From a virus (taxonomy: Duplodnaviria > Caudoviricetes): 64,000 bases of DNA. The DNA lies in IMG/VR virus record IMGVR_UViG_3300031577_000195, positions 17,064 through 81,063 of that record; one strand, 5' to 3'. Both the position numbers and the translations under genes were made by a program. Of the stretch, positions 25,060 to 62,227 are shown piece after piece. How positions within the stretch are numbered: position 1 is the stretch's first letter; the number at the start of each line of letters is the position of its first letter. Below the pieces are notes generated by a model. That model was not told the DNA's origin. It made no database searches and saw only the letters and a program-made list of their open reading frames with translations.

Positions 25060-25090
25060 TGCCCAAAATACTCAAAGGATAACAAAGGAG
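25060..25090 (+). repeat. RBS-associated directional motif, copy 1 (only plus-strand copy)
   Basis: TGCCCAAAATACTCAAAGGATAACAAAGGAG. Confidence 0.85.
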
Positions 25091-25099
25091 TGTATCAAA

Positions 25100-28000
25100 A
25101 TGACCTTTAAAATGCATCATGAGTTATCTATGACAGGTATATCAAGAATGGCCTTCAATATTTACGAAGATATTTACTTTTGCATAAGCGGTCAAAGTAC
25201 CATTAGAACAACAGGAAGTTACTGGAGGAATTAAAATGACAAATAGAATGTTAATCGCTGATAAACTTGAAGACCTTACAGGTTATATTGGAAGATGTAA
25301 TGAAATTCGCGGGAATCGTAAAGCTAAACAGAATGCCCTATCTGCTGTAAATGATTGGTTTGATTCTAAAGTTTATCCAAAGTGTAACAATGATGGACGA
25401 ATGGAAGAAGCTAAAGACAAACACAATGAGTTACTACAGCTAATCAATAGATACATACCAGAACAAACCAAACAGCAATTCCAAATATACAACCTCTGGT
25501 TACCTCTTATGAATCATTTGTATTTCTTATTCTCTGGCTGCGAACCTGACCAATTTACAAGAAACCCTAGTCAATACAACGGAGATAGGCAGCAGAATTA
25601 TATCGACGCTAAACAAAGGCTTATTAACCTTGTAGGCAATACTGAAGAGCTACAAATGTTATTCAATGAGTTAGAAACTACAGGAAAACTATATCTTGAG
25701 AAATTTGGTCAAATGAATACTTTAGAAGACAAGCGCGACAATAGGAAACAATGGGAGACTTTATATAGCAAACAAAAGGAACTTACGCCAGCATATAAAC
25801 AAGCGGAAAACAACTTAACTAATTATCTTATGGAGGTATCGAACTAATGAAAACATTATATTTTGAGGGTGCTGGCTGGCCTGATGCTGATTCATCAAAA
25901 GCCACAGACGTAGGGAACTGTCGTATTCGTACAGCTTTTACAAATGACAAGGGGCAAAAGATATACTTAGAAATAAGCCAGGCTCCTGCATTTAATAACA
26001 AAGGTAAACGCATTGATGGAGAATATCGGATGTACATAAGCCATATCTTTTATATTACTGGCGACAGAGACGACGAAAACAAAAACCGTATACCTAGAGA
26101 CTGGGACGAAATCAGAACACACGACTATACAAAAGAAAACATTGTAGCATGGGTAAACAAAAACTTAAACTGTAGTTTTTATACTATGGAAGTCCTTGAC
26201 TGGATGGAAGGCTATAATGTTCACGCAGATAACAGAGGTTATAACCTTATGGACAATCACATAGTTAACCGCGAGAGAACTAAAGCAAGAAATGAAGCGT
26301 ATAACATGATTGATCAAGAGTATCGGGAGCATTGTAATGAAAAATACTCTGTTATTACTCTAAAAGCTATGGATAATAACACAATTACTGTCTATTGTCA
26401 TAGCCGTGAATATAATAGATATCTCCAGCGTAATGCACTAAAAGATAATAAACCTAGAACAGCAATAGTTAACATATGGACTAAGGAAGTGACTTATAAA
26501 TGATTAAGATAACAAAAGCAGCCTTTGACAAGCTTTCATCTGACTACAAAGGCGAATGGTCACAAGGGCTTTACGAATGGAGAAATGGAGACTTTCCAAA
26601 GGAATGGATCGGCAGAAAAACTATGCTCTCTTATGATAAAACTTATGGAACTACATTATTGACTGAAGGCATAGACTTTGAAATTGTGGAGGGCTGCACT
26701 AATGAACTATAACGAAATTACTTCAGCTATTCATCGAATGGCATACAAGCGATACCTTCGAGGACAAGCACAAGAACAGGTAATAAACCATTTAAAACAG
26801 CTTTATAGCACTACATGGAAAAACAATAGCGACATTCGAGAATTTATATTAAATGTAATTCTTGAGTTTGAAAACTTGATTATCATTCGTCCATTCGGCA
26901 TATGTAATTACCTTGTTATTGGTAACGGATTTACAAAAGAAATAACCGTAATTAACGAAAGAGAAATAATTATAAGATAATTAAGGAGGTAACAACATGT
27001 TAACCATAGGAACTAAATTTTATATGAGTTCAAAGACTTCGCCTATTCCTAGACTATTTCAGTATATCGGACAAGATTTTGAATGGTTTGATCTATGGTG
27101 TAATCATATAGTGGTTGAAGTATCCACAGGAGAAATTAGCCATATTGAGCCTGAATGGTTTAATCAAAGAAAAATTACCTTGCTTTAGTTCTCTCCTTCC
27201 CCATTAACTACTACTAACGAAAGGCAGATGTATATCTAATGTCAAAGCGCGAACGTTTAACACTACTGTTATGTCTATATTTATCAAAAGTTAACAAAGA
27301 TGTAATAAAATGATAACCTTGGGAGGTAGTTTCAATTGTATCAATACAAGCTGATTAACACTAGTAACAATGGAATATGTGATGTATGCAAAAGGTATTG
27401 CACTAATGTGTATACCCAAGTCGAACAAAAGTATCATAACTATAACAGTAAGGATATATATGAAGGCTGGAGTCAATACGGCTGTGTTAACTATAGTGGT
27501 CACGAAAAATGCTTAAAGAGTGTCAGAAGATAAAACTTTCTTTCCCCTCCAACGAAACTATAGGAGGTGCTTAGAATGACAAGTGAAGACCATATATTAC
27601 AATTGGTAACCCAACGAGTAAACAAATACAGGGAAATCTTAGCAGCTACAACAGACCAGCGTATGAAGGAAATAACTCAGGCTTATCTATTAGAAGCTGA
27701 AGCAATACAACGGATTATCAAAAAGCATATCAATGGAGGTATGACAAATGAAAGACACATTGACCGAACTTGAAACTAAAGTAATGCAAAGTATTCCTGA
27801 AGATTATTTTTACGAAGATGGCTTTAGTTCTACCTTATGGCTTGATGCCTTTATTGATACTGTCACTAGACATACAAAAATTCAACCTAATCAAACCAGG
27901 GCGTTATTAGTAACTTTACAAACTAAAGAATACATTGGTATGCTCGGCGGTAAAGATGGTTACCTCTGGCTATCTGATAAGGGTAAAACCTGGTTGCTTG

Positions 28001-28375
28001 AAAATGGCCTAGTGAATCAAGATGGTAAGCCCTTAGACTAAAGCGGACTTTGTACCGCTTGAAGAATACTAGAGGTAATACTTTAGTACTTTTCAAGGAG
28101 TACAAATATTACCGGAGGTGTAACCAATGTATTATGATGAAGCACAGGAATTCATAAGAAAATGCACTTTGCAACAACAAAAGGAAGTTGATAAAAAAAT
28201 ATCCAAGTGGATTGACGGAATATCCTCTGACCTAAAATTAAATCAGGCTCAATCTAGAAGATTAAAAATTCATATAAAAGATATGATTAGCTACTCACGG
28301 AGGTGTAACTCATGCTTAAATTTTGTTACTCAGGGAAAGCCAAAGATATTCATTCGAACGCTTTTAGGCTACTAA
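25100..28375 (+). other. Rightward run of early hypothetical ORFs (25100-25234, 25236-25847, 25847-26503, 26500-26712, 26678-26980, 26997-27188, 27336-27533, 27567-27773, 27748-28041, 28127-28375)
   Basis: Tightly packed, RBS-preceded, co-oriented ORFs; no recognisable family. Confidence 0.75.
28038..28106 (+). ncRNA. Candidate pseudoknot RNA, copy 2
   Basis: Same flanks as copy 1; inner hairpin differs in sequence but still pairs. Confidence 0.55.
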
Positions 28376-28510
28376 TGACCATCTATTGGAACAAATACCC
28401 TATTTAGCTATGCCCATAATAACCAGTAAATAACAAAGGAAGTGCTTAGAATGACAGTCCTATACTTTAACGACAGTTGACCCTCTTCCCTTCCTTCTGG
28501 TGAAAGGCAG

Positions 28511-28573
28511 GTGAAACTATTGTCAATCATTATGGCACTCATAATATGGGCATTGTTAGCCCCTACGAAATGA
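28511..28573 (+). CDS. 20-aa hydrophobic peptide
   Basis: GAAAGGCAG then GTG; MKLLSIIMALIIWALLAPTK. Confidence 0.4.
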   Translation: MKLLSIIMALIIWALLAPTK

Positions 28574-28625
28574 CGAAAGGCTGATACCTATGTATGACAC
28601 AAGTTGACCAAAAGGAAAAGAGGCC

Positions 28626-29336
28626 TTAAGCCTCTTTAAGTATCCTATGTATGAAATTGATTCCTTTGGGCGTAACTAGAGTATAAACATATGCTACACA
28701 TGAGCAATTGCCTTTAGTAACCACCTTTTCTTTTAGCTTAAAGTATCCAGCATTGACATACTTTTGATATGGCCCATAGCCACCGTACCAATCACGATAG
28801 ATAACATCAAGATCACGCAACAACTCAAACAAGCGATTCCTTCCAGTGCCTAAAACTTTAGCAACTTGAGATATTGTTTGAAGCCCTTCAGATTCCATAA
28901 AGGTATCATATGCTTGAGCTTTAGGTAATAATCTGGAGTTTTCTTCTAATAAATCTGCTGCCAGCCGTAGAGCTTCAGGTGTTGTTTGTGGTATACTTGT
29001 ATTTGACTGCTGGGCTAAGTATGCGCCATTTTTGCGGATGGACGGTAATACTTCATCGAATATCCAACATTCGAATCGTTCAGCAGTCTTTAAATTACTT
29101 CTAATGATTAATCGATAGATATCACCTTCAGGAATAACTTTTAACTCTTGTTCGCCGCCATTTGTAAGGACTAGGTGTTTCACCGACCCCTTTGTATGTC
29201 TCTTGATTGCGTCATATGGATCTACATATCCTAATACTTTAGCTATGTCAGATGCAACTGCGTATGTCTTCCCTTCGATTTCTAAAAACCTTACTTGACC
29301 AAACTCTTCATTATTGAATACTTGTAAGTTATTCAT
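28626..29336 (-). CDS. BRO-N / KilAC antirepressor
   Basis: FNNEEFGQVR...EGDIYRLI.RS...AE.F..WI..EVLPSIRK.G.Y plus C-terminal G.G.N.LF..LR...VT.KG. Confidence 0.92.
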   Translation of the reverse strand: MNNLQVFNNEEFGQVRFLEIEGKTYAVASDIAKVLGYVDPYDAIKRHTKGSVKHLVLTNGGEQELKVIPEGDIYRLIIRSNLKTAERFECWIFDEVLPSIRKNGAYLAQQSNTSIPQTTPEALRLAADLLEENSRLLPKAQAYDTFMESEGLQTISQVAKVLGTGRNRLFELLRDLDVIYRDWYGGYGPYQKYVNAGYFKLKEKVVTKGNCSCVAYVYTLVTPKGINFIHRILKEA

Positions 29337-29536: not shown

Positions 29537-29560
29537 AAATAAACCCTCCCATAAATTTTA

Positions 29561-29604
29561 GTAAGTATTACTTACACATTTATATTATAGTAAGTATCGC
29601 TTAC
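29561..29604. promoter_or_regulatory. Two operator-like palindromes in the divergent promoter region
   Basis: GTAAGTATTACTTAC (29561-29575, perfect) and GTAAGTATCGCTTAC (29590-29604); TTGACT on the minus strand at 29610-29605. Confidence 0.75.
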
Positions 29605-29622
29605 AGTCAAGGAGTATTTTTT

Positions 29623-29853
29623 ATGTATAACCAAAATACTATAGCTGAAAAAATTTCCCTATTAATGAAGGAAAACAATATAACTCATCAGTTATTAGCA
29701 GATGCTATTGGTGTTAGTCGTCCATCAGTAACACAGTTTACCACTGGAGCAAATCTACCTTCAATTAAAACACTTGTTATTATTGCGGACTACTTCGAAG
29801 TATCCTTAGACTACCTTTGTGGCCGCACAGATAACCCAAAGGTAAATACCTAG
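29623..29853 (+). CDS. XRE-family HTH repressor
   Basis: ITHQLLADAIGVSRPSVTQF...PSI.TL..IADYFEVSLDYL.GR. Confidence 0.92.
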   Translation: MYNQNTIAEKISLLMKENNITHQLLADAIGVSRPSVTQFTTGANLPSIKTLVIIADYFEVSLDYLCGRTDNPKVNT

Positions 29854-33295: not shown

Positions 33296-33556
33296 TTTTA
33301 CATCTCTCCTTATCTATAAAATAAATAAAGAGAGTGGAACGGTAGTTATCCATTAAGACTCTCTTGTAAAACAAAAAAAATAATCACATGAAAATCACAT
33401 GGTTATCCATCTTCATCCAGGATTCTCTTAGTGTTTCTGTTGTCTAAACTTAAAACATCACACAAGCACCATAACTCTGCCAATAGGCATAATAAAAGTA
33501 CCAACCTAAGTTAGTCCCTTTGTTAAAACTATTGATTTTCTGTTGTTTTTACTTAT

Positions 33557-33638
33557 GGTAATACAAATGTACCCCCTAGTACAAAAGATACCAAAAAACA
33601 CCCCTTATACACATGTTTCTGACATTAGAATCGATTCT
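33557..33638. repeat. Dispersed ~76-82-bp element, copy B
   Basis: See copy A. Confidence 0.9.
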
Positions 33639-33655
33639 AATGATTAACAAAGACA

Positions 33656-33685
33656 TTGACTGCAATTACAAACTAGGTGTATAAT
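33656..33685 (+). promoter_or_regulatory. Sigma-A promoter
   Basis: TTGACT-18-TATAAT. Confidence 0.7.
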
Positions 33686-34240: not shown

Positions 34241-34315
34241 GGAGCTAATGAGAGGACTTGAACCTCCAACATGCTAATTACAAATAAGCTGCTCTACCAA
34301 TTGAGCTACACTAGC
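34240..34315 (-). tRNA. trnT: tRNA-Thr(TGT)
   Basis: GCTAGTG/CATTAGC acceptor, TAGCTCAATTGGTAGAGC D arm, TTTGTAA loop, GGTTCAAGTCC, encoded CCA; one T:T in the anticodon stem. Confidence 0.9.
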
Positions 34316-34318
34316 ATA

Positions 34319-34393
34319 TGGCGAATCGGCTAGGACTCGAACCTAGATCGCAAGGTTTTGGAGACCTGCATGTTTCCATTACACCACCGAAAC
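34319..34393 (-). tRNA. trnW: tRNA-Trp(CCA), degenerate
   Basis: CTCCAAA loop, GGTTCGAGTCC, encoded CCA; two T:T acceptor mismatches and one C:T in the anticodon stem. Confidence 0.7.
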
Positions 34394-35010: not shown

Positions 35011-35802
35011 CTACCGACCTCCTTTTGTTAAATGTTGAGTATTTTGGACAAACTTAGCCCTTGGTTTCATTTCTTTGTTCGTACACTTGATTCCACATTG
35101 TGAACATATGCCCTCTGTATAGGTATCTATGGCACACTTATGTTTACTTTTGTACTCCTTAGTGTCACGATGTTTATTATAAGACCAATAGCCGCCATTG
35201 TTTACTTTCATAAGTCTTGTCCCTAGCCACCCTATGTGATGCTTGGGCGTACTCGCTTCTTCCATTGATTCATTCGGTAGCAATAAATCTTTACATAGGG
35301 TATTACTGACGGGTGTACATTTTTGCTTGATTTTAGCCGTAATACGCTGTAGTTCCTTAATTCCGATCTTTGTTAAAGCTATCCTCTTGTTTTCTTCTGT
35401 TTTCTTCGATTTATAGCCACTTGCGTTCTTGAGTAGCTTTTTATATTCGCCTACAACATGCTCCCCTATTTGCTCGAACGTCATCTTGTCAATACAGTAC
35501 ATGTAGAATATCTCTCGTTCCTTTGGACTCAACTTAGACAACACAAGTTTAATCATTTGTACTATCTCTTGTCGCTTTTCTTTCTCCACCAGGATTTCAC
35601 ATGGGTCAAGTCCTTGCGTCCTCCCATAGTTTTCAATCAAATAATCTTCATCAAGGTATTTCTTTTGTATATCATCGAGTAATGCTGCTAGTTGATCTAT
35701 GGTTATCCCTCCGTTTCGTCTTGCGTTCTTCTTCCTTAAGTTGAAACTCCATACTAGCCTTAATTTTCGCATGAGTATTCTTAATTGCACTAAACCAATC
35801 AT
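35011..35802 (-). CDS. Sigma-70 region-4-type factor (late sigma/activator candidate)
   Basis: LSKLSPKEREIF.M...MTFEQIG region-4 motif; start probably ATA 35700 after GGAGGG; Cys-rich tail. Confidence 0.7.
   Translation of the reverse strand: MIGLVQLRILMRKLRLVWSFNLRKKNARRNGGITIDQLAALLDDIQKKYLDEDYLIENYGRTQGLDPCEILVEKEKRQEIVQMIKLVLSKLSPKEREIFYMYCIDKMTFEQIGEHVVGEYKKLLKNASGYKSKKTEENKRIALTKIGIKELQRITAKIKQKCTPVSNTLCKDLLLPNESMEEASTPKHHIGWLGTRLMKVNNGGYWSYNKHRDTKEYKSKHKCAIDTYTEGICSQCGIKCTNKEMKPRAKFVQNTQHLTKGGR
35021..35050 (-). repeat. RBS-associated directional motif, copy 2
   Basis: TGTCCAAAATACTCAACATTTAACAAAAGGAGG, inside the sigma gene 3' end. Confidence 0.85.
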
Positions 35803-45736: not shown

Positions 45737-45775
45737 TAGACTTCTTCCTCTCTCTCCGTAGTTTCCTTACGTCCA

Positions 45776-45803
45776 TTTTGTTAACTATTGAGTATTTTAG
45801 ACA
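45776..45803 (-). repeat. RBS-associated directional motif, copy 5
   Basis: TGTCTAAAATACTCAATAGTTAACAAAA; contains the upstream gene's stop. Confidence 0.9.
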
Positions 45804-46486
45804 GACTTAACCCTTAGTTCTTGATACAACTTAGGTACTATTGCGAATACAAATGGCTTATACCTGTTCTTCTCACCGTAAGGACTTATCATAGCTACAA
45901 TCTGCGCTCCATCTTGGTCAAAGTAGTCATGTATCCTCTTAAGCCTCTTATCAGGTATCTCATGAACATCATATGTCTGCCCTAAGAGCAACCCATGAAA
46001 TACATCTTCAATCATAAGATAACAGAAGTCTTCAATATAGGTTATCTCATGTTCTTCCGCAAGCTTATATATAGAAGCATGAGATTGTAACAATCGTTTC
46101 TTAACTTCAGTCATACGCCAGTCATCCAGCAGATATATCCATTTGTCCGACTCAAGCATCTGTCTGGTTTCTGCAGACTTACCAAATGTTTGAACTGCTG
46201 ATTTTAATTTGCCAGATAACAACGATGATTTTATAGGAATACCCCAAGATTCCATTAGGACATCAAGTTTCTTTTCTGCATAATTACCTGTGGACTTATT
46301 ACGTTTAGTTCTTTTGGACGCTTCAGTTTTTCTCTTGTCTTTCTTAGCTTGCTTACGGTCTGACCTAAGTTTAATCTGTCGTTTGCTTAAAACATTTAGG
46401 TTAATCGGCTGGTAATCACTATAGTCTGAGCAAAAATCACATTCGTAGGCATGATGACAGTTATCTTTTACTTCACATTTGACTAT
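45797..46486 (-). CDS. Putative Hjc-like Holliday junction resolvase (ATA start)
   Basis: In-frame extension adds a Cys-rich N-terminus and KRNKSTGNYAEKKL...G...SG; RBS AGGGGTG 7 nt before ATA. Confidence 0.5.
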   Translation of the reverse strand: MVKCEVKDNCHHAYECDFCSDYSDYQPINLNVLSKRQIKLRSDRKQAKKDKRKTEASKRTKRNKSTGNYAEKKLDVLMESWGIPIKSSLLSGKLKSAVQTFGKSAETRQMLESDKWIYLLDDWRMTEVKKRLLQSHASIYKLAEEHEITYIEDFCYLMIEDVFHGLLLGQTYDVHEIPDKRLKRIHDYFDQDGAQIVAMISPYGEKNRYKPFVFAIVPKLYQELRVKSV

Positions 46487-47531: not shown

Positions 47532-47564
47532 CCTCCTTTTGTTAACTTTTGAGTATTTTGAACA
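47532..47564 (-). repeat. RBS-associated directional motif, copy 6
   Basis: TGTTCAAAATACTCAAAAGTTAACAAAAGGAGG. Confidence 0.9.
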
Positions 47565-47569
47565 GACCT

Positions 47570-48430
47570 CTAGCTCTTGCTTTTATGTTTCTCTAGATAA
47601 TAAGGGCAACTAATATTACACCCACAATACGTGGTGCATTTCATGTCATTGCTCCATCTGTCTTCACACACTGGAGGCATCTCCTGATTATCCAAAGCAT
47701 ACATTAGGCTATCATGTTTTTCCTTCATATAAGCCCTAATTTCTTCCTTTGGTATAATCGGTAGGTCAATTGGATTAGAAAATCTAGTGAGTCCATAAGA
47801 CCTTGCTGTTGCATCAAGTCCACCTCTAAGAAACATTTGAAGCTTTAGTTTATTCACCTGAAACCCATGATTTTCTAGTAGCACCCTGTAGTATGACAAT
47901 TGTCTCTGAGGTTCTAAAATATCTGGTTCACTTGGTTCCCATGTTGCTCCCCATTTAGCCTGACCTTTCTTTGGGCCTCTAACGTAATATTCTCCAGTTG
48001 CCCCATAGGTTGGCTTATGACCAATCTTCTTAGCTAATACGTAAGCTCCGTAAAACTTGAAGTCAACCAAAGTTTTACTGATGGAATCATATGCGTCAAT
48101 TTGGCCTGAACATATGTCATCTTCGAAGCGAACTTCTGAAACCCAACCATTCGGCATATTGCGCTCCATTAGAGAATGCGAATTTGTGCCTATCATTGAA
48201 CTAAGGGACTTATCTGGGTTAATCGTTTGGTCCGTAGTAATCAATAGATACGCTTGTCTCGTAGGTTGTAACAATTGTGTGACGCTTGGTTTGCCGTAAA
48301 ACTGTCTACTTCTAGTTACTGCCAAGAGTCCAGGTAAAGCCATGCAGCGGTCTTCCATTCGGCAATTCTTTAGGCACTCTTGTTTAGCTATTGTCTGCCC
48401 GTCAGGACAAATTAGATGTGTAACTGCTAT
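47570..48430 (-). CDS. Cas4-like PD-(D/E)XK exonuclease (ATA start)
   Basis: G...H, GQID, DFK, QLS.Y and C-terminal C..C...C...C; Cys-rich N-terminus only from ATA 48430. Confidence 0.75.
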   Translation of the reverse strand: MAVTHLICPDGQTIAKQECLKNCRMEDRCMALPGLLAVTRSRQFYGKPSVTQLLQPTRQAYLLITTDQTINPDKSLSSMIGTNSHSLMERNMPNGWVSEVRFEDDICSGQIDAYDSISKTLVDFKFYGAYVLAKKIGHKPTYGATGEYYVRGPKKGQAKWGATWEPSEPDILEPQRQLSYYRVLLENHGFQVNKLKLQMFLRGGLDATARSYGLTRFSNPIDLPIIPKEEIRAYMKEKHDSLMYALDNQEMPPVCEDRWSNDMKCTTYCGCNISCPYYLEKHKSKS

Positions 48431-51114: not shown

Positions 51115-51147
51115 CCTCCTTTTGTTAACCTTTGAGTATTTTGGGCA
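51115..51147 (-). repeat. RBS-associated directional motif, copy 7
   Basis: TGCCCAAAATACTCAAAGGTTAACAAAAGGAGG. Confidence 0.9.
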
Positions 51148-51149
51148 AA

Positions 51150-51356: not shown

Positions 51357-51441
51357 ATCCCTTAACCTCCTTTAGTATACCATACGTCATATACAGTGTC
51401 TACTGTTTTAGTAAAACTTTTTGTTATTTGTTTAGTATTTT

Positions 51442-52587
51442 TCAGATAGCCATTTCCTTCATACTTGTTGTTTGTTTGTTGGAAATCAATTGAATATACC
51501 TTGCACCGTCTATACCATTCCTAGCCTTGCCAATCTTAGAGCTAATAATGTTGTCTTCTCCTGATTCTTCCATTGCTTGACGATCTATAGGTGATATCTT
51601 TGGATTCTCTGATTCCTTCCAGAGTAGCCAAGCAATATCGCCAACTGCCTCTATTGCTCCCCCCCCTTTTAAATTCGAAATATCTGGTTCTTCCCAAGAT
51701 TTTGTTGTACGCGCCATCTGTGACAAAGCAATTAACATAATATTTAATCGTCTTGCTATAGGTTTAAATGACATTACATTTTCCTCAAAATAACTAAAGT
51801 CGCTCATTTTAGGCATCATCTGGACATAATCTATGCCTATAACCTGTGTTTTCCCGCCGTTGTGCTTGAATAGCTCCTTAGAATTTATTGTCAATACTCG
51901 TTCTTCAATATTATTAATAGATAATGTTGGGTTATCATTGATGTACAGATATTCCTGAACTTTAGATAATACAACCGAATAGTCAATTTGTTTATTTCTA
52001 ACTTTTTCTTCAAGTTCTTTAACAGATATCCCATAAATGTTCGCTACAATCCGTTTATAAAGTTTACCAGCAGACATTTCTAAGGAAAACAACACAACGT
52101 TTATTTTTAGCCTAATAGCCATATGAAGTGCAATTTCCATAAGGACAAAAGTTTTACCTATTCCTGGCCTAGCAGCAATAAAAAATACGTCAGTTAAGCT
52201 AAGTCCACCTATTGCATTATCGAATGTAGGATAGCCAGTGGTTATTCCTTCGTGATGTAAAATAGAGTCTTCCATTTCTCTGATACAGGTATAAGCATCC
52301 TTAAACTCGTTTATAATTTCATCTGATGTTGATACTTCCGACACCTTAAGGAACTCTTTAATTTCTGTAATGTCTTTATCCCATTGTTGACTCAAAAGTT
52401 TCGCTAAATCAGACCTTATAAGCGGACTTTTGATTGTCCTTGAGTATTTTTCAATTGCTTTATATTGAGCGTTTTGGTCATCAGGGTACTGTTGTAGCAA
52501 CTGATTGGCACAATAGATATCTATAGGTTGAGTATATAAGTCTGATATCTGATGTCCTGCTAAAAGCAAGTCGTTAAAATCCTTCAT
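51442..52587 (-). CDS. DnaB-like replicative helicase
   Basis: AARPGIGKT, FSLEM, IDYVQ, ALSQ, KGGGAIE..D, GKARNG. Confidence 0.92.
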   Translation of the reverse strand: MKDFNDLLLAGHQISDLYTQPIDIYCANQLLQQYPDDQNAQYKAIEKYSRTIKSPLIRSDLAKLLSQQWDKDITEIKEFLKVSEVSTSDEIINEFKDAYTCIREMEDSILHHEGITTGYPTFDNAIGGLSLTDVFFIAARPGIGKTFVLMEIALHMAIRLKINVVLFSLEMSAGKLYKRIVANIYGISVKELEEKVRNKQIDYSVVLSKVQEYLYINDNPTLSINNIEERVLTINSKELFKHNGGKTQVIGIDYVQMMPKMSDFSYFEENVMSFKPIARRLNIMLIALSQMARTTKSWEEPDISNLKGGGAIEAVGDIAWLLWKESENPKISPIDRQAMEESGEDNIISSKIGKARNGIDGARYIQLISNKQTTSMKEMAI

Positions 52588-53553: not shown

Positions 53554-55005
53554 TCACCTCCTATGAAGCTTCTTTGTTCTAAGCTTCTGTTTAATCGCTT
53601 TATGACAACTGTTATACCCGTCGATATATCCTGCTTCATACTCTGATTTACTTTGGTAATCCATCAGTTGATTCCGTAGTTTATCTCTATTGTGTCTATT
53701 GTCGCGCTTACTTAGGTACAACCTTTGGCGTAACTGTTGAATCTGCTTTTGTTGATAATCAAAGATACGAATAACATGATCTCTTACTTTTGAATCCATT
53801 AGTCACCTCTTTCTCAAGCTTAATACCACAGAATGGACAATAGTCAATAGTAAAACTAAAGCACCCCTCAATGTTCATAAGGTATTTGTCATCGTATAAT
53901 CCTTCGAACTTTATAATGTAATAAGGCATCCTTGGTTTGTATTCATGATTTTTGCACTCATGATAAATACATTTGTGTCCGTCCATAGCTATCTTCCTCC
54001 AGAATCAATTCTAATGTTAGAAACCATTGTTATAATGCATGTTTCTACTATAAAGTGAACTAGGGTATACATTTGTTAATCCACAAAGCTTAAGTGGCAC
54101 TTTTTGCATCCACTTGGGTTAAACCAGGCTATTTCATAGTAAACCGCATGACACCTTGGGCAGCTACGTTTGGTATTTGCTGTAGTGTGTTTATAGTCAC
54201 AACAATAGCAATGCCAATGTGCTGCTCCATGTTCACCCTCTACGAAAAACTCAATGTTATACTGATTACTACCACAATTAGGACATCTCATTTGTTACCT
54301 CTCTCTCTTAGGTAGTCGCATATTACAAATGTCATACCTACAGCACCTAAAACTACTGTTTCGATAATGGACACTATTTGATCACCAGATAACATTAGTT
54401 ACCCTCCTTGATTAACGCTTGGATTTTTCTTCCGGCTTCACTGTTGATACTGTCAATTTTATCTGCACATTTAATACATAAGTCTTCTATTATAATCCAG
54501 TTGTTATTACCAAAAGTATCTTTACCAAAGTAATCTCTGATTCTTGGTGGATAACAAAATTCTTCGCCGCAGACATCACACGTTACTATTGTTCTTTTCA
54601 TTAGTCATCCTCCTTATATCCAATGCGCTCATGAACAGAATCAATTGATATCCTTACGTCATTAATGACCTTATTTAGTGTATAAACTATATCTCTATCC
54701 TGTAGATGACTATAATCACAACCTATGACAATCTTGCGATACTCTTTATTAGCAGTGTAGTCAACACAATGTTTTGTAAAGGTACATCCACCATGCAAGT
54801 CTATATTTCTATACATGTCTTCGCACTCCATATAGCCCTTTTGTTCCCATGAGTTCTCTGCAAGTTGCTTATCGGTTATTTTGTCAATCACTAAATGGAT
54901 ATAATAAGTGAATTTCCAATATTCTAATGGTTCATTAATCTCAAAATAGACACCCCTGTATCTACCGCAATGTTTAGTTAATGGAGCTTCAATAGCACTA
55001 TTCAT
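53554..55005 (-). other. Small hypothetical ORFs (53554-53799, 53759-53986, 54076-54291, 54395-54601, 54601-55005)
   Basis: ORF track; several have CxxC zinc ribbons. Confidence 0.6.
54001..54076. repeat. Dispersed ~76-bp element, copy C (inverted relative to A/B)
   Basis: AGAATCAATTCTAATGTTAGAAACCATTGTTATAATGC...GGGTATACATTTGT. Confidence 0.88.
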
Positions 55006-55418: not shown

Positions 55419-55423
55419 TAAAT

Positions 55424-55455
55424 CACCTCTTGTTATTTCTTGAGTATTTCGGGCA
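55424..55455 (-). repeat. RBS-associated directional motif, copy 8
   Basis: TGCCCGAAATACTCAAGAAATAACAAGAGGTG. Confidence 0.8.
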
Positions 55456-55463
55456 GACTTAGG

Positions 55464-56627
55464 CTACTCTCCATACTTAAGTAAAAACTCTGGATTAATC
55501 GCCTTGAAGCTAATCCGGTTTCTCACCAATTGACAATGCAGTTCCCTATCTTCGGTTTCCTCAAGTGGCCTAATGACTATACCTTCACGTTTGGTCTGTG
55601 GTGTGATTGTAGAACTACCCTTAGACATTTCCACAAGTTCATCAATGTTGTTAGTTAAGGTGAAGTCCGTAGATAACACAGGTACAGTCTCTAGGGCAAG
55701 TACACAAATTATCGCTTCAAATTCATGGAAATCAAGATACTGTTGCTTATCAATATTAAATACATTAAAGAATCTAATGGTGTGGCCTTTAATTTTCAGC
55801 TTGTTACTCTGAATACCCTCACCAAGGAGTTCGCCTTGTAAAGCAAAGTTTTTCAAAGGGACAACACTAGCAACTTCAGCATACTTACGCATCTTCTCTT
55901 CGATGTCCATTGTTCTCACGGTATCCCAAAAGGTATTCCCTTCAGTTTCCGCAAGGTCAATGTTACGAGAGCATACTCCAAACTCACCATTCTTGAGGTA
56001 AATTGTTATGCTTGAACCATCAAGCTTCTCTGTGATGTAGCATTTAGTACCTTGGTATTTGTCGAGTAGTTTTTGCAGTACCTGGACTCTCGTTTCGTCA
56101 GTCTTAGGAACGAAGTAAGGAAATGATTCACCAGCTTTAGTCGCTAGATTTCTCTTGAACCATTTAGGAAACCAGCTATTGAGATATGTAGCAATGAACT
56201 TAGGTATCCACTTGGGATAAACATATCGTGCAACCGTTTGATTATCTCGGATATCTGCAGATACCTCTGGTTCATACTTGGTAATACCTAAGATTTCAGT
56301 TACATCGAAATCTTCACAATAGTCCTCTGGGTTGCCTGAGTGGTTCGGTAGAATACTTAATGGCATCACAAGTCCTTGGCTAATCTGTCCTCTAAGTTTG
56401 ACTGTACGAATCTTCTTCATTTTACCTTGTGAATCCTTAAGGAACTCAAACTCTGGCCTATCGGGACATATTGAGTCTGGTTCAATAAAGACAACTAAGT
56501 CATTAACCTTAAATTCATCCTTCTTGATTACACAATGCCATCCAAGGACTGTAGCAACCTCAATTGCATCAGCGTTAGGTATTGGCTCAATCTTAAGTAT
56601 ACGTTGGATACTCGCGAGTTTTCTCAT
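55464..56627 (-). CDS. RNA ligase (Rnl2 / DRB0094-like with N-terminal OB fold)
   Basis: RKLASI...PI..AD, KLRG..SQG, KTDE.R, EKLDGSS, QGEL.G.GIQ, EGIV, FK.I. Confidence 0.92.
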   Translation of the reverse strand: MRKLASIQRILKIEPIPNADAIEVATVLGWHCVIKKDEFKVNDLVVFIEPDSICPDRPEFEFLKDSQGKMKKIRTVKLRGQISQGLVMPLSILPNHSGNPEDYCEDFDVTEILGITKYEPEVSADIRDNQTVARYVYPKWIPKFIATYLNSWFPKWFKRNLATKAGESFPYFVPKTDETRVQVLQKLLDKYQGTKCYITEKLDGSSITIYLKNGEFGVCSRNIDLAETEGNTFWDTVRTMDIEEKMRKYAEVASVVPLKNFALQGELLGEGIQSNKLKIKGHTIRFFNVFNIDKQQYLDFHEFEAIICVLALETVPVLSTDFTLTNNIDELVEMSKGSSTITPQTKREGIVIRPLEETEDRELHCQLVRNRISFKAINPEFLLKYGE

Positions 56628-56632: not shown

Positions 56633-56665
56633 CCTCCTTTTGTTAACTTTTGAGTATTTTTGGCA
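56633..56665 (-). repeat. RBS-associated directional motif, copy 9
   Basis: TGCCAAAAATACTCAAAAGTTAACAAAAGGAGG. Confidence 0.9.
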
Positions 56666-56725
56666 TAGAAATACTAAGGTAGCTTTTGACCACACTTAGG
56701 ACACTTTAGCATCTTTAGTCCCCCT

Positions 56726-59077: not shown

Positions 59078-59114
59078 ATTCTGCTATATCTAACTAACAA
59101 TTCCCACTAACTAC

Positions 59115-60395
59115 TCATTTGACCTCCTTTAGCACACTTAAAAGTTTATCGCAGGTACTTATGACACCATGAGTCTTACGCTTGAACGCTGTGCGTTCCT
59201 GAAGTATTTCCATAAGTTCACAATATCGTTTGTAACCAGTGTACATGTCAGGTTTCTTCTTAAGGTCAACTTTGTGATAATACTCAGATAATCGCTTGTC
59301 ATGATACTGTTGTTGTTTTACTACTGACGCTTTTTCGCCAGCTACCATTTGTGCAAATTGAGATAATTTCTGTTTAAACATGACTACCCTCCTAACGTCC
59401 ATTCTAAGGTTAGAAACCTAAGTTATAACGCATGTTTTGATACTTTTGTATAACTGTAGGTATAAATGTATACTCTTGGTTATACCTTGAGTAAAACATA
59501 GGTTTTAATGTGGTTTATTCACTAGCTACCTCTAATAAATTTATTCCACAGAATGGACAGTAGTTTATTATTAGGAATTGGCAGTTTAATTCTCCGTATT
59601 GCAATTCCCAATGATATCCTGAATGTATCCTCGTTATATCAACGAATGCACTATCACTACCAGTACACCTATGGATATCCATTAGTTATCACTCCTTTGT
59701 TATAGCTAAAGCTTCACTTGCGATATCGGATATAATTTGAGCTAAAGCAGTTCCATAAATGCGTTCTGGAGCATTGTACCCTAGTTCATCTCCTAGCCTT
59801 TTCACTTGTTCTAAGGCTTGTTGCATATTGTTTGCTCTGGCTTTTTCGGCCTGTAACTCACGCTCAAGGCTGGCTATCATTTGTTTTAAAGAACAATCTT
59901 CTTCTTCCTCTTCACACTTGTAGCATAAGCACTTTTCAACATCACTCACCCTTGCTCACCAGCCTTTCGCCACTTTTCCGTTAATTCATACCTTTTGGGT
60001 TGGGTCATTGATTCTTCTAGCAAACACGAAGCTTCTACTGGAGATATATTGTTCTCTTGTAGCAAGCGTAACAACTTTTGGCCTTTCGATTCATAACTGG
60101 GAATAAAATTAATTTTCACTCCGATCACTCATTTCTTGACTCCTCTACTACAATAATCATTATCATGTATAGTGTGTGTTCTCTGAAGCATATCGCATTC
60201 CCGCTCCATATTACTATAGTACCTACACTCGAAACAATGCACTATTTCCAATGGCATCATGTTTACTTTTCTACAAAGGGCATATATCCGTTGGCATAAC
60301 TCAAGTATAGCCATAGCAATAGATGTAACAATAACCACATATCCAATACTTATAGCTGCATAATTAAGCAATTTAAGTATAAACTCAATTATCAT
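59115..60395 (-). other. Small hypothetical ORFs (59115-59402, 59689-59949, 59946-60128, 60129-60395)
   Basis: ORF track. Confidence 0.6.
59396..59470. repeat. Dispersed ~76-bp element, copy D (degenerate, oriented as C)
   Basis: ATTCTAAGGTTAGAAACCTAAGTTATAACGCATGTTT. Confidence 0.7.
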
Positions 60396-60985
60396 TTGTC
60401 ACCTCTTAAGCTTCGTACATATGCTATAAACCCAAGATATTCTTTTAGATACTGCGGATTATCTGCATGTACTTCCTTAACTCTTACTTCAAATTCATCT
60501 AGTGTACCGCCTTCGTAGTCATTCCAACAGCCACATATCACTATGTCATCATCAAAGCAATATGTTGTTGTGCCTTTGCGACTACCAACACAAGCCACTT
60601 GGATGTAACGCTTGTCTGTAGTTGCTCCACTTAGGTTAGCTTTAGTTAGAATAGCATTAGTAAGGTCAGCATCTCTTAGGTCAGCTTCAGCTAGAATAGC
60701 ATTAGTAAGGTCAGCATCACTTAAGTTAGCACCTCTTAAGTTAGCAACTCTTAGGTTAGCATTACTTAGGTTAGCATATCTTAGGTTAGCATCACTTAGG
60801 TTAGCATATCTTAGGTTAGCATATCTTAGATCAGCACCTCTTAGGTTAGCATTACTTAGGTTAGCATATCTTAAGTCAGCATATCTTAGCTTAGCATCAC
60901 TTAGATCAGCACGTTCGCCACCTGGTTTACCTCTTAGCCATTTGCCGTGACTCTCTATAATTTCGCACAGTTTGTCTTTATCCAA
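60392..60985 (-). CDS. Pentapeptide-repeat protein
   Basis: About 19 A(D/N)L(R/S)x repeats; 15-bp tandem DNA repeats at ~60631-60912. Confidence 0.95.
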   Translation of the reverse strand: MDKDKLCEIIESHGKWLRGKPGGERADLSDAKLRYADLRYANLSNANLRGADLRYANLRYANLSDANLRYANLSNANLRVANLRGANLSDADLTNAILAEADLRDADLTNAILTKANLSGATTDKRYIQVACVGSRKGTTTYCFDDDIVICGCWNDYEGGTLDEFEVRVKEVHADNPQYLKEYLGFIAYVRSLRGDK

Positions 60986-61283
60986 AGTTATTCACCACCT
61001 TCTCTGTTTTAACCCTTGGTTTTCTATTGGGACTTCTGAATCCTACGCATTTACCTTGGCACTCAAAAGTAGCACCAAACTTATCCTCTCTGATTATCTT
61101 ATAGCCTAACTTCTTGCATCGACTTATGTCAGCTTTAATTGTAGTGTCTATTGTTGTAACTTTAGTTTCCATGTCGTATCGAGTGATAGTCTCTTGTTCA
61201 CCTTTTGTTAAACGATAGTTCTTAACTAAAGATTCTGACTTAGGTTTCATATGATTCCTCCATCCAGTACCTAAGTAGGTCAT
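60978..61283 (-). CDS. Hypothetical protein
   Basis: ORF track. Confidence 0.6.
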   Translation of the reverse strand: MTYLGTGWRNHMKPKSESLVKNYRLTKGEQETITRYDMETKVTTIDTTIKADISRCKKLGYKIIREDKFGATFECQGKCVGFRSPNRKPRVKTEKVVNNFG

Positions 61284-61400
61284 TTATTATCTGCATCGGG
61301 TTATCTCCATCTCCCATTGGCTACTTTCTAGGCAATCGAAACAATGGTAGGTCTTGTGATTACTGCAGTCCTTACAATTGGTATATTCCATCTTTAGCAC

Positions 61401-61432
61401 ATCCTTTTGTTAATTCTTGAGTATTTTAGACA
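61401..61432 (-). repeat. RBS-associated directional motif, copy 10
   Basis: TGTCTAAAATACTCAAGAATTAACAAAAGGAT. Confidence 0.88.
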
Positions 61433-61490
61433 TAAAAATCCCTTAGTTTAACAGCTTCCTTCTCCCTCTGGAGAGAGCTTAAGTTCGCCC

Positions 61491-61522
61491 CCTCCGTTGT
61501 TAACTTTTGAGTATTTTAGACA
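61491..61522 (-). repeat. RBS-associated directional motif, copy 11
   Basis: TGTCTAAAATACTCAAAAGTTAACAACGGAGG. Confidence 0.9.
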
Positions 61523-61533
61523 GACTGAGGCCA

Positions 61534-62127
61534 TTAGAAAGGAATTTCTTCTGAGTTATCTTCGGGAAAATCTACAGGTGCTTCGTAACCATCGTCTTCT
61601 TCAGGAAACTCAAGGCTGCTACCACCGCCACCAGAATATTCCTTAAGATCAATCACTTGCAGTTTATCGACAAACAACGTTACCCCAAAATTCTTTTTGT
61701 TAACCCAATATACTGCAGGAGTATAGATCGCTCTTACAGTTGAACCTGTACCGATGTTAGTATCTAAAGGGATCGGATTATTCTTAGAGTCAACTAATTG
61801 TATCTTAGTCCATCTGCCGTTTTTCTCTTTCTTATTGCTCTTAAATTTAAATACTGGATTCCCTTCGTCATCTTCACTATATCCTGGAAATGGATCGCCC
61901 AACCACAGTAGTTCTTTACACTCATCTGTACCTTGCTTTTCATCAAATAAGTCACTGAATGCCTTTTGTAGATTTTTAGTATCCTTGTCGCTAAACTTAA
62001 GGGTAATCGCATAACCTTTTTCTTCATCGTTGATGACGTTTACTCTTGTATTAATATAGACATATTTCGCTTCGCCCTTTGGACTAACCGTTTGTTTACC
62101 ATAGAAGAATTTACATTTGCTTGCCAT
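61534..62127 (-). CDS. T7 gp2.5-like single-stranded DNA-binding protein
   Basis: FKFK, IG.GS.V, GV.L....QV..L.EY and an acidic tail ending in F. Confidence 0.85.
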   Translation of the reverse strand: MASKCKFFYGKQTVSPKGEAKYVYINTRVNVINDEEKGYAITLKFSDKDTKNLQKAFSDLFDEKQGTDECKELLWLGDPFPGYSEDDEGNPVFKFKSNKKEKNGRWTKIQLVDSKNNPIPLDTNIGTGSTVRAIYTPAVYWVNKKNFGVTLFVDKLQVIDLKEYSGGGGSSLEFPEEDDGYEAPVDFPEDNSEEIPF

Positions 62128-62193
62128 TTACACATTTCCCCTTTAGTATTTATTTTGGTCTAACTTAGCCCATCCTAGCGTTTACATCTTACT

Positions 62194-62227
62194 CACCACC
62201 TTTGTTAATTTTTGAGTATTTTAGGCA
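62194..62227 (-). repeat. RBS-associated directional motif, copy 12
   Basis: TGCCTAAAATACTCAAAAATTAACAAAGGTGGTG. Confidence 0.9.

What the first reader, a model, noticed from the sequence alone, without database searches (positions are those of the whole stretch)
25060..62227. Twelve-copy directional ~30-bp motif fused to ribosome-binding sites across the early genes
Seen: consensus TGYCYAAAATACTCAAAARTTAACAAAAGGAGG at 25060(+), 35021, 36068, 39931, 45776, 47532, 51115, 55424, 56633, 61401, 61491 and 62194 (all -), plus a degenerate copy at ~51417-51446. It is always in the sense of local transcription, sits at gene junctions and usually runs straight into the SD; none was seen in the virion module. 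It even supplies stop codons (MTase ...KSA*, resolvase ...KSV*) and coding sequence (sigma gene ...FVQNTQHLTKGGR). Because it abuts the SD it is unlikely to be a promoter. Established analogies: asymmetric mycobacteriophage stoperators, cluster K start-associated sequences and boxA/nut antitermination sites. Inference: a genome-wide phage control system (repressor roadblocks, translational activator/repressor sites, RNA processing sites or recombination joints for gene cassettes) whose cognate factor is unknown; candidates are the XRE protein, the sigma-like protein, the dead recombinase and the KOW/SH3-like proteins.
Basis: partly seen in the sequence, partly recalled or inferred. Interest (0 to 1): 0.85.

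Follow-up and report, generated by a model that had tools for sequence, protein, structure and literature searches.

The report
Repeated gene-junction control motif in prophage
A temperate phage of an uncultured Bacillota host carries 15 near-identical 35-bp signals between its early genes; one part of each signal recurs at the phage's ordinary promoters as a likely repressor-binding site, so the set most likely works as a genome-wide silencing network like the "stoperators" of mycobacteriophages.

Summary
All 13 listed sites exist. A position-weight scan of the whole 81-kb phage record separates 15 strong copies (34-49 bits; 12 in the window) and 3 weak ones from the background (next best 3.6 bits). 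All run in the direction of the local genes, and none lies in the virion module.

The motif has two parts.
- **5' block:** T-N-TGCC-Y-AAAATACTCAA. It occurs only at gene junctions. Its start (T-N-TGCC-Y) is shared with three related phages.
- **3' block:** WTAACAAARG, running into the ribosome-binding site. It also occurs alone, in either orientation, on or next to the -35/-10 elements of the phage's sigma-A promoters, and in front of a CI-like XRE repressor gene. There are 24 hits against about 2 expected.

Five related phages carry their own versions of the motif at the same junctions. In one of them (L110) the phage-specific 3' block again overlaps a sigma-A promoter, in inverted orientation. 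The first copies lie 45-57 nt downstream of real promoters, so the motif is probably not a standard promoter.

Best reading (0.45): a repressor operator network with stoperator-like junction sites fused to ribosome-binding sites. Main rival (0.25): repressor-gated internal promoters. The function is inferred, not shown. I rate it a new variant of a known kind, of moderate interest.

The parts
62195..62229 (-). Full motif copy, first of the leftward early operon; followed only by ATG-TAA, then the SSB-like gene
   Evidence: 43.6 bits; lies 45 nt downstream of the -10 of promoter P2
61490..61524 (-). Full motif copy with no start codon after it; tandem with the next copy 90 nt downstream
   Evidence: 46.1 bits; upstream SSB-like ORF stops 12 nt before it
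61400..61434 (-). Full motif copy followed by a short ORF of about 34-37 codons (GTG at +34 or ATG at +43); the 101-aa gene (60978-61283) follows further downstream
   Evidence: 40.4 bits
56633..56667 (-). Full motif copy before the RNA ligase gene (55464-56627)
   Evidence: 43.6 bits; ATG at +40
55423..55457 (-). Full motif copy between the RNA ligase gene and a 137-aa gene
   Evidence: 40.3 bits; syntenic with a G001 copy at 21415
51115..51149 (-). Full motif copy after the helicase/68-aa genes and before the radical-SAM cluster
   Evidence: 43.6 bits; every relative has a copy after its helicase gene
51414..51448 (-). Degenerate copy directly after the helicase gene, followed by a sigma-A-like promoter (51402-51374)
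   Evidence: (15.4 bits)
47532..47566 (-). Full motif copy after the exonuclease-like gene (47570-48358)
   Evidence: 44.4 bits; syntenic with G001 29115
45771..45805 (-). Full motif copy without a ribosome-binding site; supplies the stop codon (KSV*) of the 152-aa ORF
   Evidence: 46.7 bits
39929..39963 (-). Full motif copy before the 56-aa gene and the ThyX/dUTPase block
   Evidence: 49.0 bits
36066..36100 (-). Full motif copy; supplies the stop codon (KSA*) of the DNA methyltransferase; lies before the 133-aa and sigma-like genes
   Evidence: 44.4 bits; G001 has a copy at the end of its MTase gene (39896)
35018..35052 (-). Full motif copy read through by the 3' end of the sigma-region-4-like gene (35011-35802)
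   Evidence: 43.4 bits; ORF stop at +39
25058..25092 (+). Full motif copy in the rightward operon
   Evidence: 42.4 bits
27270..27304 (+). Weak copy in the rightward operon
   Evidence: 20.9 bits
28409..28443 (+). Weak copy in the rightward operon
   Evidence: 17.7 bits
62661..62737 (-). Early promoter P1 (TTGACA-17-TACAAT) with stand-alone 3'-block sites: TTAACAAAGG ending 2 nt before the -35, two more WTAACAAA sites upstream, and TAACAA in the spacer
62279..62320 (-). Promoter P2 (TTGACA-18-TAACAT) with TTAACAAAGG ending 2 nt before the -35
33644..33685 (+). Promoter of the 162-aa ORF (TTGACT-18-TATAAT) with TTAACAAAGA ending 2 nt before the -35
24099..24151 (+). Promoter of the rightward operon (TTGACT-16-TATAAT with TG) with ATAACAAAGA 15 nt upstream of the -35
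33517..33526 (-). Stand-alone 3'-block site in the intergenic region between the TrmB-like gene and the 162-aa ORF

Best explanation
The motif is a composite intergenic cassette of a temperate siphophage. The phage sits as a prophage next to host genes in a metagenomic Bacillota-like contig.

**3' block (inferred operator).** WTAACAAARG, which runs into the Shine-Dalgarno sequence, is the DNA recognition site of a phage-specific regulator. The most likely regulator is the CI-like XRE repressor, which lies just outside the window at L001:1934-2314. The same site sits on or beside the core elements of the phage's sigma-A promoters, where it would act as an operator. It is also placed once at each of about 15 gene junctions across the early and replication genes. 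There it would act like the stoperators of mycobacteriophage L5. Bound repressor would block RNA polymerase that has started upstream or spuriously, and would cover the DNA around the ribosome-binding site. About 35 kb of early genes would stay silent in the lysogen. The fixed orientation follows from fusion to the ribosome-binding site, from an orientation-dependent roadblock, or from both.

**5' block (partner unknown).** T-N-TGCC-Y-AAAATACTCAA starts at or within a few bases of the upstream stop codon. Its first part is conserved in relatives whose 3' blocks differ. It is a second module whose partner is unknown.

**Shown:** the anatomy, the statistics, the reuse of the 3' block at promoters in two phages with different sequences, and the syntenic positions.
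**Inferred:** that a repressor binds, that it is the XRE protein, and that binding blocks transcription.
For: 1. **The 3' block is enriched on its own.** WTAACAAARG occurs 24 times in 81 kb against about 2 expected. Thirteen copies stand alone, and these cluster in regulatory DNA.
2. **Stand-alone copies sit at the sigma-A promoters.**
   - P1, P2 and the promoter at 33656 each have a site ending 2 nt before the -35.
   - P3 (L001, about 7150-7115) has two inverted sites flanking its -35.
   - Two tandem sites with a 13-bp period overlap a TGnTAAAAT element in front of the XRE gene.
   - All three best sigma-A promoter predictions in the window (11 of 12 consensus matches) carry a site.
3. **The same logic appears with a different sequence.** In relative L110 the 3' block AAACATATAA occurs 8 times at junctions. 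It also occurs twice inverted, overlapping the -35 and -10 of the sigma-A promoter that drives the operon.
4. **In relative G001 the junction motif is an imperfect palindrome.** It is also embedded between the -35 and -10 of four full sigma-A promoters. One of these lies beside a CI-like XRE gene and one lies before the antirepressor gene.
5. **Junctions are syntenic while sequences differ.** Copies lie after the helicase gene in all six phages, before DNA polymerase III alpha in G000, G001 and L116, and after the MTase gene in G000 and G001.
6. **First copies lie downstream of real promoters.** They are 45-57 nt downstream in G000 (P2, P3) and about 10-15 nt downstream of the -10 in L110.
7. 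**The XRE protein fits a repressor.** It matches phage repressor families. It is 40% identical to the equally placed gene of L116, with E = 6e-16.
8. **Known precedent.** Stoperators share these properties: asymmetric, many copies, co-oriented with transcription, in short intergenic gaps, and the same site at the early promoter (PMC9283540).
Against: - No binding or expression data exist.
- The 5' block is as well conserved as the operator-like part, and a simple roadblock model does not explain it.
- 35 bp is far longer than any single repressor site.
- At P1, P2 and the promoter at 33656 the half-site has one fixed position just upstream of the -35. That would also fit an activator or an UP-like element.
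- XRE-type dimers usually bind palindromes, whereas this half-site is asymmetric.
- L5 stoperators also occur in the virion operon; here there are none.
- About half of the non-overlapping early junctions lack the motif (my count from the ORF list).
- Assigning the XRE protein rests only on site clustering and gene position.
Confidence: 0.45

Rival explanations
1. Repressor-gated internal promoters. The 5' block would be a promoter element without a -35, read by host RNA polymerase together with a family-conserved phage factor such as the sigma-region-4-like protein. The -10-like candidates are TAAAAT or AATACT, preceded by T-N-TG. Transcription would start in the variable 3-4 nt. The 3' block would be an operator at +1 to +15, and the conserved leader would carry the ribosome-binding site. 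Each early gene block would then have its own switchable promoter, as I recall (from memory) for the repeated early promoters and repressor sites of Streptomyces phage phiC31.
For: - The 5' block contains -10-like hexamers. AATACT is invariant at its A2 and T6 positions in all 15 copies. Variant copies keep TAnnnT at the other candidate (TAAGAT, TATGAT, CATAAT).
- The only variable positions (19-22) fall where a start site would be.
- A start there would keep the ribosome-binding site in the transcript.
- The start of the 5' block (T-N-TGCC-Y) is conserved in four phages that also share a sigma-like gene.
- Copy 2391 points into the 3' end of the convergent XRE gene. As a promoter it would make antisense RNA against the repressor.
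Against: - There is no -35 element, and the TG lies one base too far from TAAAAT for a canonical extended -10.
- The corresponding segment in L110 is not consistently -10-like.
- Where a transcription unit begins, a separate consensus sigma-A promoter stands just upstream.
- In G001 the junction copies that lack a -35 have their -10-like TATACA only 0-5 nt from the ribosome-binding site. A start there would lose that site.
- The sigma-like gene lies at the far end of the early operon, where a late-gene regulator would be expected.
- Nothing links the sigma-like protein to the motif.
Confidence: 0.25
2. A translation-level element like the start-associated sequences (SAS/ESAS) of Cluster K mycobacteriophages. 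As RNA, the A-rich unstructured leader plus a strong extended Shine-Dalgarno sequence would serve one of two roles. It could be a standby or re-initiation platform just after the upstream stop codon. Or it could be bound by a phage RNA-binding factor that sets early-protein synthesis. The 8-codon mini-ORF inside the motif (NTG CCN ... TAA) might couple termination to re-initiation.
For: - The geometry is fixed: upstream stop at -12 to +6, downstream start at +39 to +43.
- The ribosome-binding site is part of the conserved block.
- The motif is restricted to non-structural genes and has one orientation, exactly as described for SAS (PMC3203893).
- The region is predicted to be unstructured.
- G000 and both L109 copies contain an in-frame 8-codon ORF beginning Met-Pro.
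Against: - Five or six copies have no gene or no ribosome-binding site after them.
- The 3' block occurs inverted and upstream of -35 boxes, where it cannot act as RNA.
- In L110 and L111 the distance from motif to ribosome-binding site varies by 0-30 nt.
- The mini-ORF would start with CTG in 7 of 15 copies, and it is not conserved in L110 or L116.
Confidence: 0.12
3. Recombination joints. The repeats would be homology patches or recombinase sites at cassette boundaries that promote exchange of early-gene modules between phages.
For: - Gene content between copies differs among relatives. For example, the radical-SAM cluster lies between copies 51140 and 47557 in G000 but has no counterpart in the G001 BLASTP comparison.
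- The phage encodes two recombinases.
Against: - Each phage has its own motif sequence, so the repeats could not pair between different phages.
- The tyrosine recombinase is an ordinary integrase at the prophage end.
- The motif has no inverted-repeat architecture like attC sites.
- Pattern scans of IMG/VR and JGI metagenomes found no other genome with this motif.
Confidence: 0.05
4. Antitermination (nut/boxA-like) or RNA-processing sites acting on the nascent transcript.
For: - The first copy lies in the leader just downstream of an early promoter.
- TTTAACAA resembles the 3' part of the E. coli rrn boxA (recalled from memory).
Against: - There is no hairpin partner and no fold better than shuffled sequence.
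- There is no Rfam match.
- Fifteen copies are not expected for nut sites.
- Inverted and untranscribed copies of the 3' block exist.
- As I recall (from memory), boxA in Firmicutes has a different consensus.
Confidence: 0.03

Closest known systems
Stoperators of Cluster A mycobacteriophages (L5 gp71; TipsytheTRex repressor; PMC9283540, PMC6550527)
   Same: - An asymmetric site in more than 20 copies, strictly co-oriented with transcription and placed in short intergenic gaps at stop/start codons.
- The same site also acts as the operator at the early lytic promoter.
- The site sequence differs between related phages.
   Different: - The stoperator is a 13-bp site; here a 10-bp operator-like block is joined to a further ~20-bp conserved block and to the ribosome-binding site.
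- No copies lie in the virion operon.
- The host is Bacillota-like, not Actinobacteria.
- The candidate repressor is a 126-aa XRE-type protein, not shown to be related to gp71.
- Binding is untested.
Start-associated sequences and extended SAS of Cluster K mycobacteriophages (PMC3203893; function still untested in 2025, PMC12699233)
   Same: - Directly upstream of start codons, and containing the Shine-Dalgarno core.
- One orientation only.
- Restricted to the non-structural half of the genome.
- The upstream stop codon sometimes lies inside the repeat.
- A second conserved module lies immediately upstream and varies between sub-lineages.
   Different: - The sequence is unrelated (SAS is GGGATAGGAGCCC).
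- ESAS are 17-bp inverted repeats, whereas this 5' block is not an inverted repeat.
- Here the block next to the ribosome-binding site also occurs at sigma-A promoters in both orientations. The parts of the Cluster K paper that I read do not mention this for SAS.
SPBRE / MrpR of Bacillus prophage SPbeta (PMC10516654)
   Same: A short phage-specific repeated element at about 10 promoter regions of a large Bacillota prophage, bound by the master repressor. That prophage also has a serine recombinase.
   Different: - SPBRE is a 15-bp element in promoter regions, not at ribosome-binding-site junctions within operons.
- MrpR is a catalytically dead tyrosine-recombinase-fold protein. Here the large tyrosine recombinase is intact and is the integrase, and the 162-aa recombinase-like ORF is only a weak lead.
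Repeated early promoters and conserved inverted repeats (repressor sites) of Streptomyces phage phiC31 (recalled from memory; not found in the paper library)
   Same: Many near-identical phage-specific expression signals in front of early genes, each associated with a repressor-binding site.
   Different: - In phiC31 the promoter function was shown by experiment; here it is only a rival hypothesis.
- The sequences and hosts are unrelated.

Membership tests
Stoperator/operator network (Cluster A type) | Asymmetric site in many copies, co-oriented with transcription, in short intergenic spaces | tested here: met
   18 of 18 copies are co-oriented with the local genes. The upstream stop lies -12 to +6 nt from the motif start.
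Stoperator/operator network (Cluster A type) | The same site also overlaps the early lytic promoter(s) as a true operator | tested here: met
   The 3' block occurs alone at P1, P2, P3 and the promoter at 33656 in G000. It overlaps the -35/-10 in L110 and lies in the promoter spacer in G001. This holds for the 3' block only, not the whole 35 bp.
Stoperator/operator network (Cluster A type) | Bound by the immunity repressor; blocks elongation in an orientation-dependent way | not testable with these tools
   Needs EMSA or ChIP and reporter assays.
Stoperator/operator network (Cluster A type) | Repressor homologous to L5 gp71 (HTH plus stoperator domain) | not tested
   The candidate XRE protein matches Pfam HTH_3/HTH_26 and PHROG repressor families. 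No comparison with gp71 was made.
SAS/ESAS (Cluster K) | Lies 3-7 bp upstream of start codons, contains the Shine-Dalgarno core, has one orientation, and occurs only among non-structural genes | tested here: met
   About 10 of 15 copies have a start codon 4-8 nt after GGAGG. None lies in the virion module.
SAS/ESAS (Cluster K) | Consensus GGGATAGGAGCCC, with 17-bp inverted repeats as the extension | tested here: not met
   The sequence is different, and the 5' block is not an inverted repeat.
SPBRE/MrpR (SPbeta) | Repeated element bound by a catalytically dead tyrosine-recombinase-fold repressor | tested here: inconclusive
   - The recombinase at 62903-64000 keeps R, HxxR, H and Y, and sits at the prophage end.
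- The 162-aa ORF has no Pfam or PDB sequence match.
- Its single-sequence AlphaFold2 model is unusable, with pLDDT 38.
- Only the ESM Atlas places it near small PF00589-like clusters.
Sigma-A (sigma-70 type) promoter | -35 and -10 hexamers 16-18 nt apart, or a TGn extended -10 | tested here: not met
   - The region where a -35 would lie is not conserved and is often coding.
- The TG is 2 nt, not 1 nt, from TAAAAT.
- The consensus scan flags only 3-4 copies, each through non-conserved flanking bases.
nut/boxA antitermination site | RNA element in the leader with a boxB-type hairpin; acts only when transcribed | tested here: not met
   - MFE z-scores run from -0.64 to +1.44 with no common hairpin.
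- The half-site also occurs inverted and upstream of -35 boxes.
Known RNA families (Rfam 15) | Covariance-model match at the gathering threshold | tested here: not met
   Only two tRNA genes match, at 34243-34393.

The most novel reading that the evidence does not exclude
The junction element could be a two-module code used by a whole family of Bacillota prophages. The first module is family-conserved (T-N-TGCC-Y...) and would be read by a conserved phage or host factor. The second is immunity-specific and would be read by each phage's own CI-like repressor. Together they would give every early gene cassette its own portable expression signal: repressor-gated, independent of a sigma-A -35 element, and fused to the ribosome-binding site. 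If true, it would be the first such system in Firmicutes phages. It might also give a testable mechanism for the long-unexplained SAS/ESAS elements of mycobacteriophages.
Probability: 0.25. Interest if true: 0.75.

Novelty: new variant of a known kind. Interest (0 to 1): 0.55.

Why it matters
Distributed repressor sites that silence whole operons are well documented only in actinobacteriophages, as stoperators. The similar-looking start-associated sequences have had no known function since 2011. This case is an independent example in an uncultured Bacillota prophage lineage.

Comparative data split the element into two modules. One also serves at ordinary promoters, so it is very probably a DNA-binding site. 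The other is conserved across relatives. That split yields direct experiments: which protein binds which block, and whether the element acts on transcription or on translation.

It also offers a rule for reading immunity groups from sequence in this phage family, since the 3' block changes with the phage. Practically, such cassettes are compact, portable stop-operator-RBS units that could serve as regulatory parts.

Tried and rejected
- **Close relatives by DNA.** A megablast of 12 kb against 50,697 phage records found no match. tblastn with the helicase found only relatives below 30% identity.
- **Pattern scans for the motif elsewhere.** IMG/VR gave 97 single chance hits and no multi-copy contig. 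Two scans of JGI metagenome contigs gave nothing.
- **Sequencing runs.** None was listed for a 10-kb stretch, and no RNA holder was listed. No read mapping was possible.
- **RNA structure.** Folding all 15 copies with flanks gave z-scores from -0.64 to +1.44 and no shared hairpin. A weak possible pairing of UGCC with the ribosome-binding site was not significant.
- **Rfam.** Only two tRNA genes matched.
- **Sigma-A promoter reading.** Rejected for lack of a -35 element and because real promoters stand just upstream.
- **Large tyrosine recombinase as an MrpR-like dead repressor.** Rejected. Its catalytic residues are intact and it sits at the prophage-host junction.
- **162-aa ORF.** Pfam, PHROGs and PDB sequence searches were negative. 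The single-sequence AlphaFold2 model had pLDDT 38 and was not used.
Rejected. The apparent AAAATACTC next to the antirepressor promoter is the reverse strand of that gene's own ribosome-binding region. The region also has its own palindromic operators.
- **Mini-ORF (Met-Pro-Lys-Ile-Leu-Lys-x-stop) as the main function.** Set aside. It would start with CTG in 7 of 15 copies, and its length is not conserved in L110 or L116.
- **TAA in all three frames as a designed feature.** Only one TAA is invariant.
- **Near-identical copies of the phage.** Records from two other samples differ by 1 base in 21 kb, so they say nothing about selection on the motif.
- **'Resolvase' label.** It has no Pfam support for the ORF at 45797-46255.

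Full report
**1. What is there**

The window is bases 17064-81063 of an 81,063-bp IMG/VR virus record. The same sequence, differing by 1 base in 21 kb, lies in a 168-kb metagenome contig. There an intact tyrosine integrase (window 62903-64000) abuts host genes for rubrerythrin, thiamine synthesis, FBP aldolase and a pseudouridine synthase. So this is an integrated prophage.

Gene content:
- a leftward early/replication operon from about 62.5 to 34.4 kb: SSB-like, RNA ligase, primase, DnaB helicase, a radical-SAM cluster, exonuclease, dNMP kinase, NrdD/NrdG, ThyX, dUTPase, MTase and a sigma-region-4-like protein;
- a mixed regulatory region at 24-34 kb;
- the virion module at 1-23.3 kb;
- outside the window, DNA polymerase III alpha, a CI-like XRE gene, an Xis-like HTH gene and a serine recombinase.

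**2.

Shuffles expect none. A weight-matrix scan of the whole record gives 15 copies at 34-49 bits and 3 degenerate ones at 15-21 bits. The next best site scores 3.6 bits. All 18 run with the local genes, and none lies in the virion module.

The upstream ORF stops -12 to +6 nt from the first T of the motif, and the next start codon lies at +39 to +43. The roughly 45-bp junction is therefore filled by the motif. Five or six copies have no real gene behind them.

**3. The motif has two parts**

The 5' block (T-N-TGCC-Y-AAAATACTCAA) is found only in full copies. The 3' block (WTAACAAARG, then AGG of the ribosome-binding site) also occurs alone. There are 24 matches in 81 kb against about 2 expected, and 13 of them lie outside full copies.

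The stand-alone sites concentrate at the phage's sigma-A promoters.
- P1 (62689-62661, TTGACA-17-TACAAT), P2 (62308-62279) and the promoter at 33656 each have the site ending 2 nt before the -35.
- The promoter at 24124 has one 15 nt upstream.
- P3, outside the window, has two inverted sites flanking its -35.
- Two tandem sites overlap a TGnTAAAAT element in front of the XRE gene.

Sites in inverted orientation, and sites upstream of a -35, cannot act as a ribosome-binding site or as RNA. So this block is read as DNA by a protein.

**4. Relatives**

Helicase homologues led to five related phages, with helicase identity of 51-79%. One of them, G001, was read in full.

| Relative | Junction motif | Copies and notes |
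|---|---|---|
| L110 | ...TATGCCCAAAGTTAGACT-N-AAACATATAAG | 8 copies in 21 kb |
| L111 | T-run-ACC-N-CATAAATAAATATGAAGGAG | 7-10 copies |
| L116 | TATGCCYTAAAWWTATACGGAAATATAGAAGGAGG | 3 copies |
| G001 | cgtctACACATCGGTATACA, an imperfect palindrome | at least 12 copies |
| L109 | degenerate version | 2-3 copies |

- All of these motifs are directional and sit next to ribosome-binding sites.
- A copy follows the helicase gene in all six phages, and one precedes DNA polymerase III alpha in three.
- T-N-TGCC-Y is invariant across G000, L109, L110 and L116, while the rest is lineage-specific.
- In L110 the lineage-specific 3' block occurs twice inverted, as an exact 10-mer, on the -35 and -10 of the sigma-A promoter that drives the operon.
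- In G001 the whole motif sits between the -35 and -10 of four full sigma-A promoters. One of these lies next to a CI-like XRE gene and one lies before the antirepressor gene.

The pattern 'phage-specific site at promoters plus the same site at junctions' therefore recurs with unrelated sequences.

**5. Not a standard promoter, not an RNA fold**

- There is no conserved -35 element.
- Where a transcription unit begins, a consensus sigma-A promoter stands 45-57 nt upstream of the first copy (P2, P3). In L110 the first copy begins about 10-15 nt after the -10 of such a promoter.
- Folding shows no shared structure.
- Rfam has no match.

**6. Mechanism**

The best-supported reading is a repressor network. 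The 3' block would be the operator of a phage-specific repressor, and the junction copies would act like L5 stoperators (PMC9283540).

The XRE protein is the leading candidate, for four reasons:
- it has repressor-family matches;
- it has half-sites in front of its own gene;
- it has a homologue at the same position in L116, 40% identical with E = 6e-16;
- G001 and L110 each carry a CI-like XRE gene beside their early promoter.

All of this is inference; nothing shows binding.

The 5' block remains unexplained. Its -10-like hexamers, and the variable bases where a start site would fall, keep alive the rival that each cassette is a repressor-gated internal promoter. A purely translational role like that proposed for SAS is weakened by the untranscribed and inverted half-sites and by the copies without genes.

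**7. Comparison with known systems**

- It works like stoperators, and it looks like SAS/ESAS: next to the start codon, containing the Shine-Dalgarno core, only among non-structural genes, with an upstream extension (PMC3203893).
- The function of SAS/ESAS is still untested (PMC12699233).
- It is not a sequence member of either family.
- The SPBRE/MrpR parallel (PMC10516654) holds only loosely, because the large tyrosine recombinase here is a normal integrase.

**8. Verdict**

This is a real, striking and statistically unambiguous regulatory architecture. It is most likely a new variant of distributed repressor-site control in a Bacillota prophage family, with a second module of unknown function. 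Interest is moderate (0.55). It would rise if the two-module code, or promoter function, were shown.

Noticed in passing
window 23300-24100: About 0.8 kb of non-coding DNA lies upstream of the virion operon. It holds tandem ~31-bp repeats (ctatagattaaacttaaggcagacatatgat, two copies) and several related 'taggc' words. It may be an origin or a packaging/regulatory region. A terminator-like hairpin at 23433-23450 sits just before the first late gene.
   Followed up: no
window 29537-29622: This is a separate small switch. Two palindromic operators (GTAAGTAT-TACTTAC and GTAAGTATCGCTTAC) lie between a 76-aa HTH_3 gene (29623-29853, +) and a leftward operon. That operon has a 65-aa gene plus a Bro-N/KilAC antirepressor (28626-29336). 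The layout resembles a P22 immI-like antirepressor region. In G001 the antirepressor gene instead carries the G001 junction motif inside its promoter.
   Followed up: partly
window 62903-64000 and L001:1-1446: The prophage has two recombinases. An intact tyrosine integrase sits at the end that abuts host genes. A large serine recombinase (481 aa) sits at the other end of the record, beside an Xis-like HTH gene (L001:1621-1803) and the XRE gene. L116 has the XRE/Xis-like pair but shows no serine recombinase in the 22 kb that I read.
   Followed up: partly
window 34243-34393: Two tRNA genes lie on the minus strand at the distal end of the early operon (Rfam, 64.9 and 45.5 bits).
   Followed up: no
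window 33627-33638, 13114-13125, 54001-54012; L001 about 6905-6925: The palindrome AGAATCGATTCT occurs 3 times against 0.16 expected. One copy lies directly upstream of the half-site and -35 of the promoter of the 162-aa ORF. It may be the site of another dimeric regulator.
   Followed up: partly
inside every full motif copy, e.g. window 56643-56666 (-): An in-frame 8-codon mini-ORF runs from the NTG of T-N-TG to the TAA of TTAAC (Met-Pro/Ser-Lys-Ile-Leu-Lys/Asn-x-stop). Both L109 copies have an ORF of the same length (MPKLRKN*, MPFCNKN*). Some L110 and L116 copies read Met-Pro-stop. Weak AAGGG-type ribosome-binding sites lie 5-9 nt upstream in about 6 copies.
   Followed up: partly
window 62178-62183 (-): The first motif copy is followed by a bare start-stop (ATG TAA) at the normal spacing from its ribosome-binding site, ahead of the SSB-like gene. 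Promoter P1 is likewise followed by a 5-codon ORF.
   Followed up: no
window 16163-16200 (-): After a strong terminator hairpin, the sequence TATGTCCAAAAT (the start of the 5' block) runs straight into AAAGGATG and the start of the 351-aa ORF at 15107-16162 (not scanned against any family; possibly the major capsid gene, judged only from its place in the virion module). It is the only 5'-block-like sequence in the virion module.
   Followed up: no
G001 (loci L100-L103), e.g. L100:9089-9103, L101:1415-1429: The arms of the G001 junction palindrome co-vary: GTATAC/GTATAC, GTCCAC/GTGGAC and GTCTAC/GTAGAC. That pattern is more typical of a hairpin than of a fixed protein half-site.
   Followed up: no
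window 61435-61489 (-): The 55 nt between the two tandem copies (61515 and 61425) contain a GC-rich imperfect hairpin (GCTCTCTCC-AGA-GGGAGAAGG) and no ORF.
   Followed up: no
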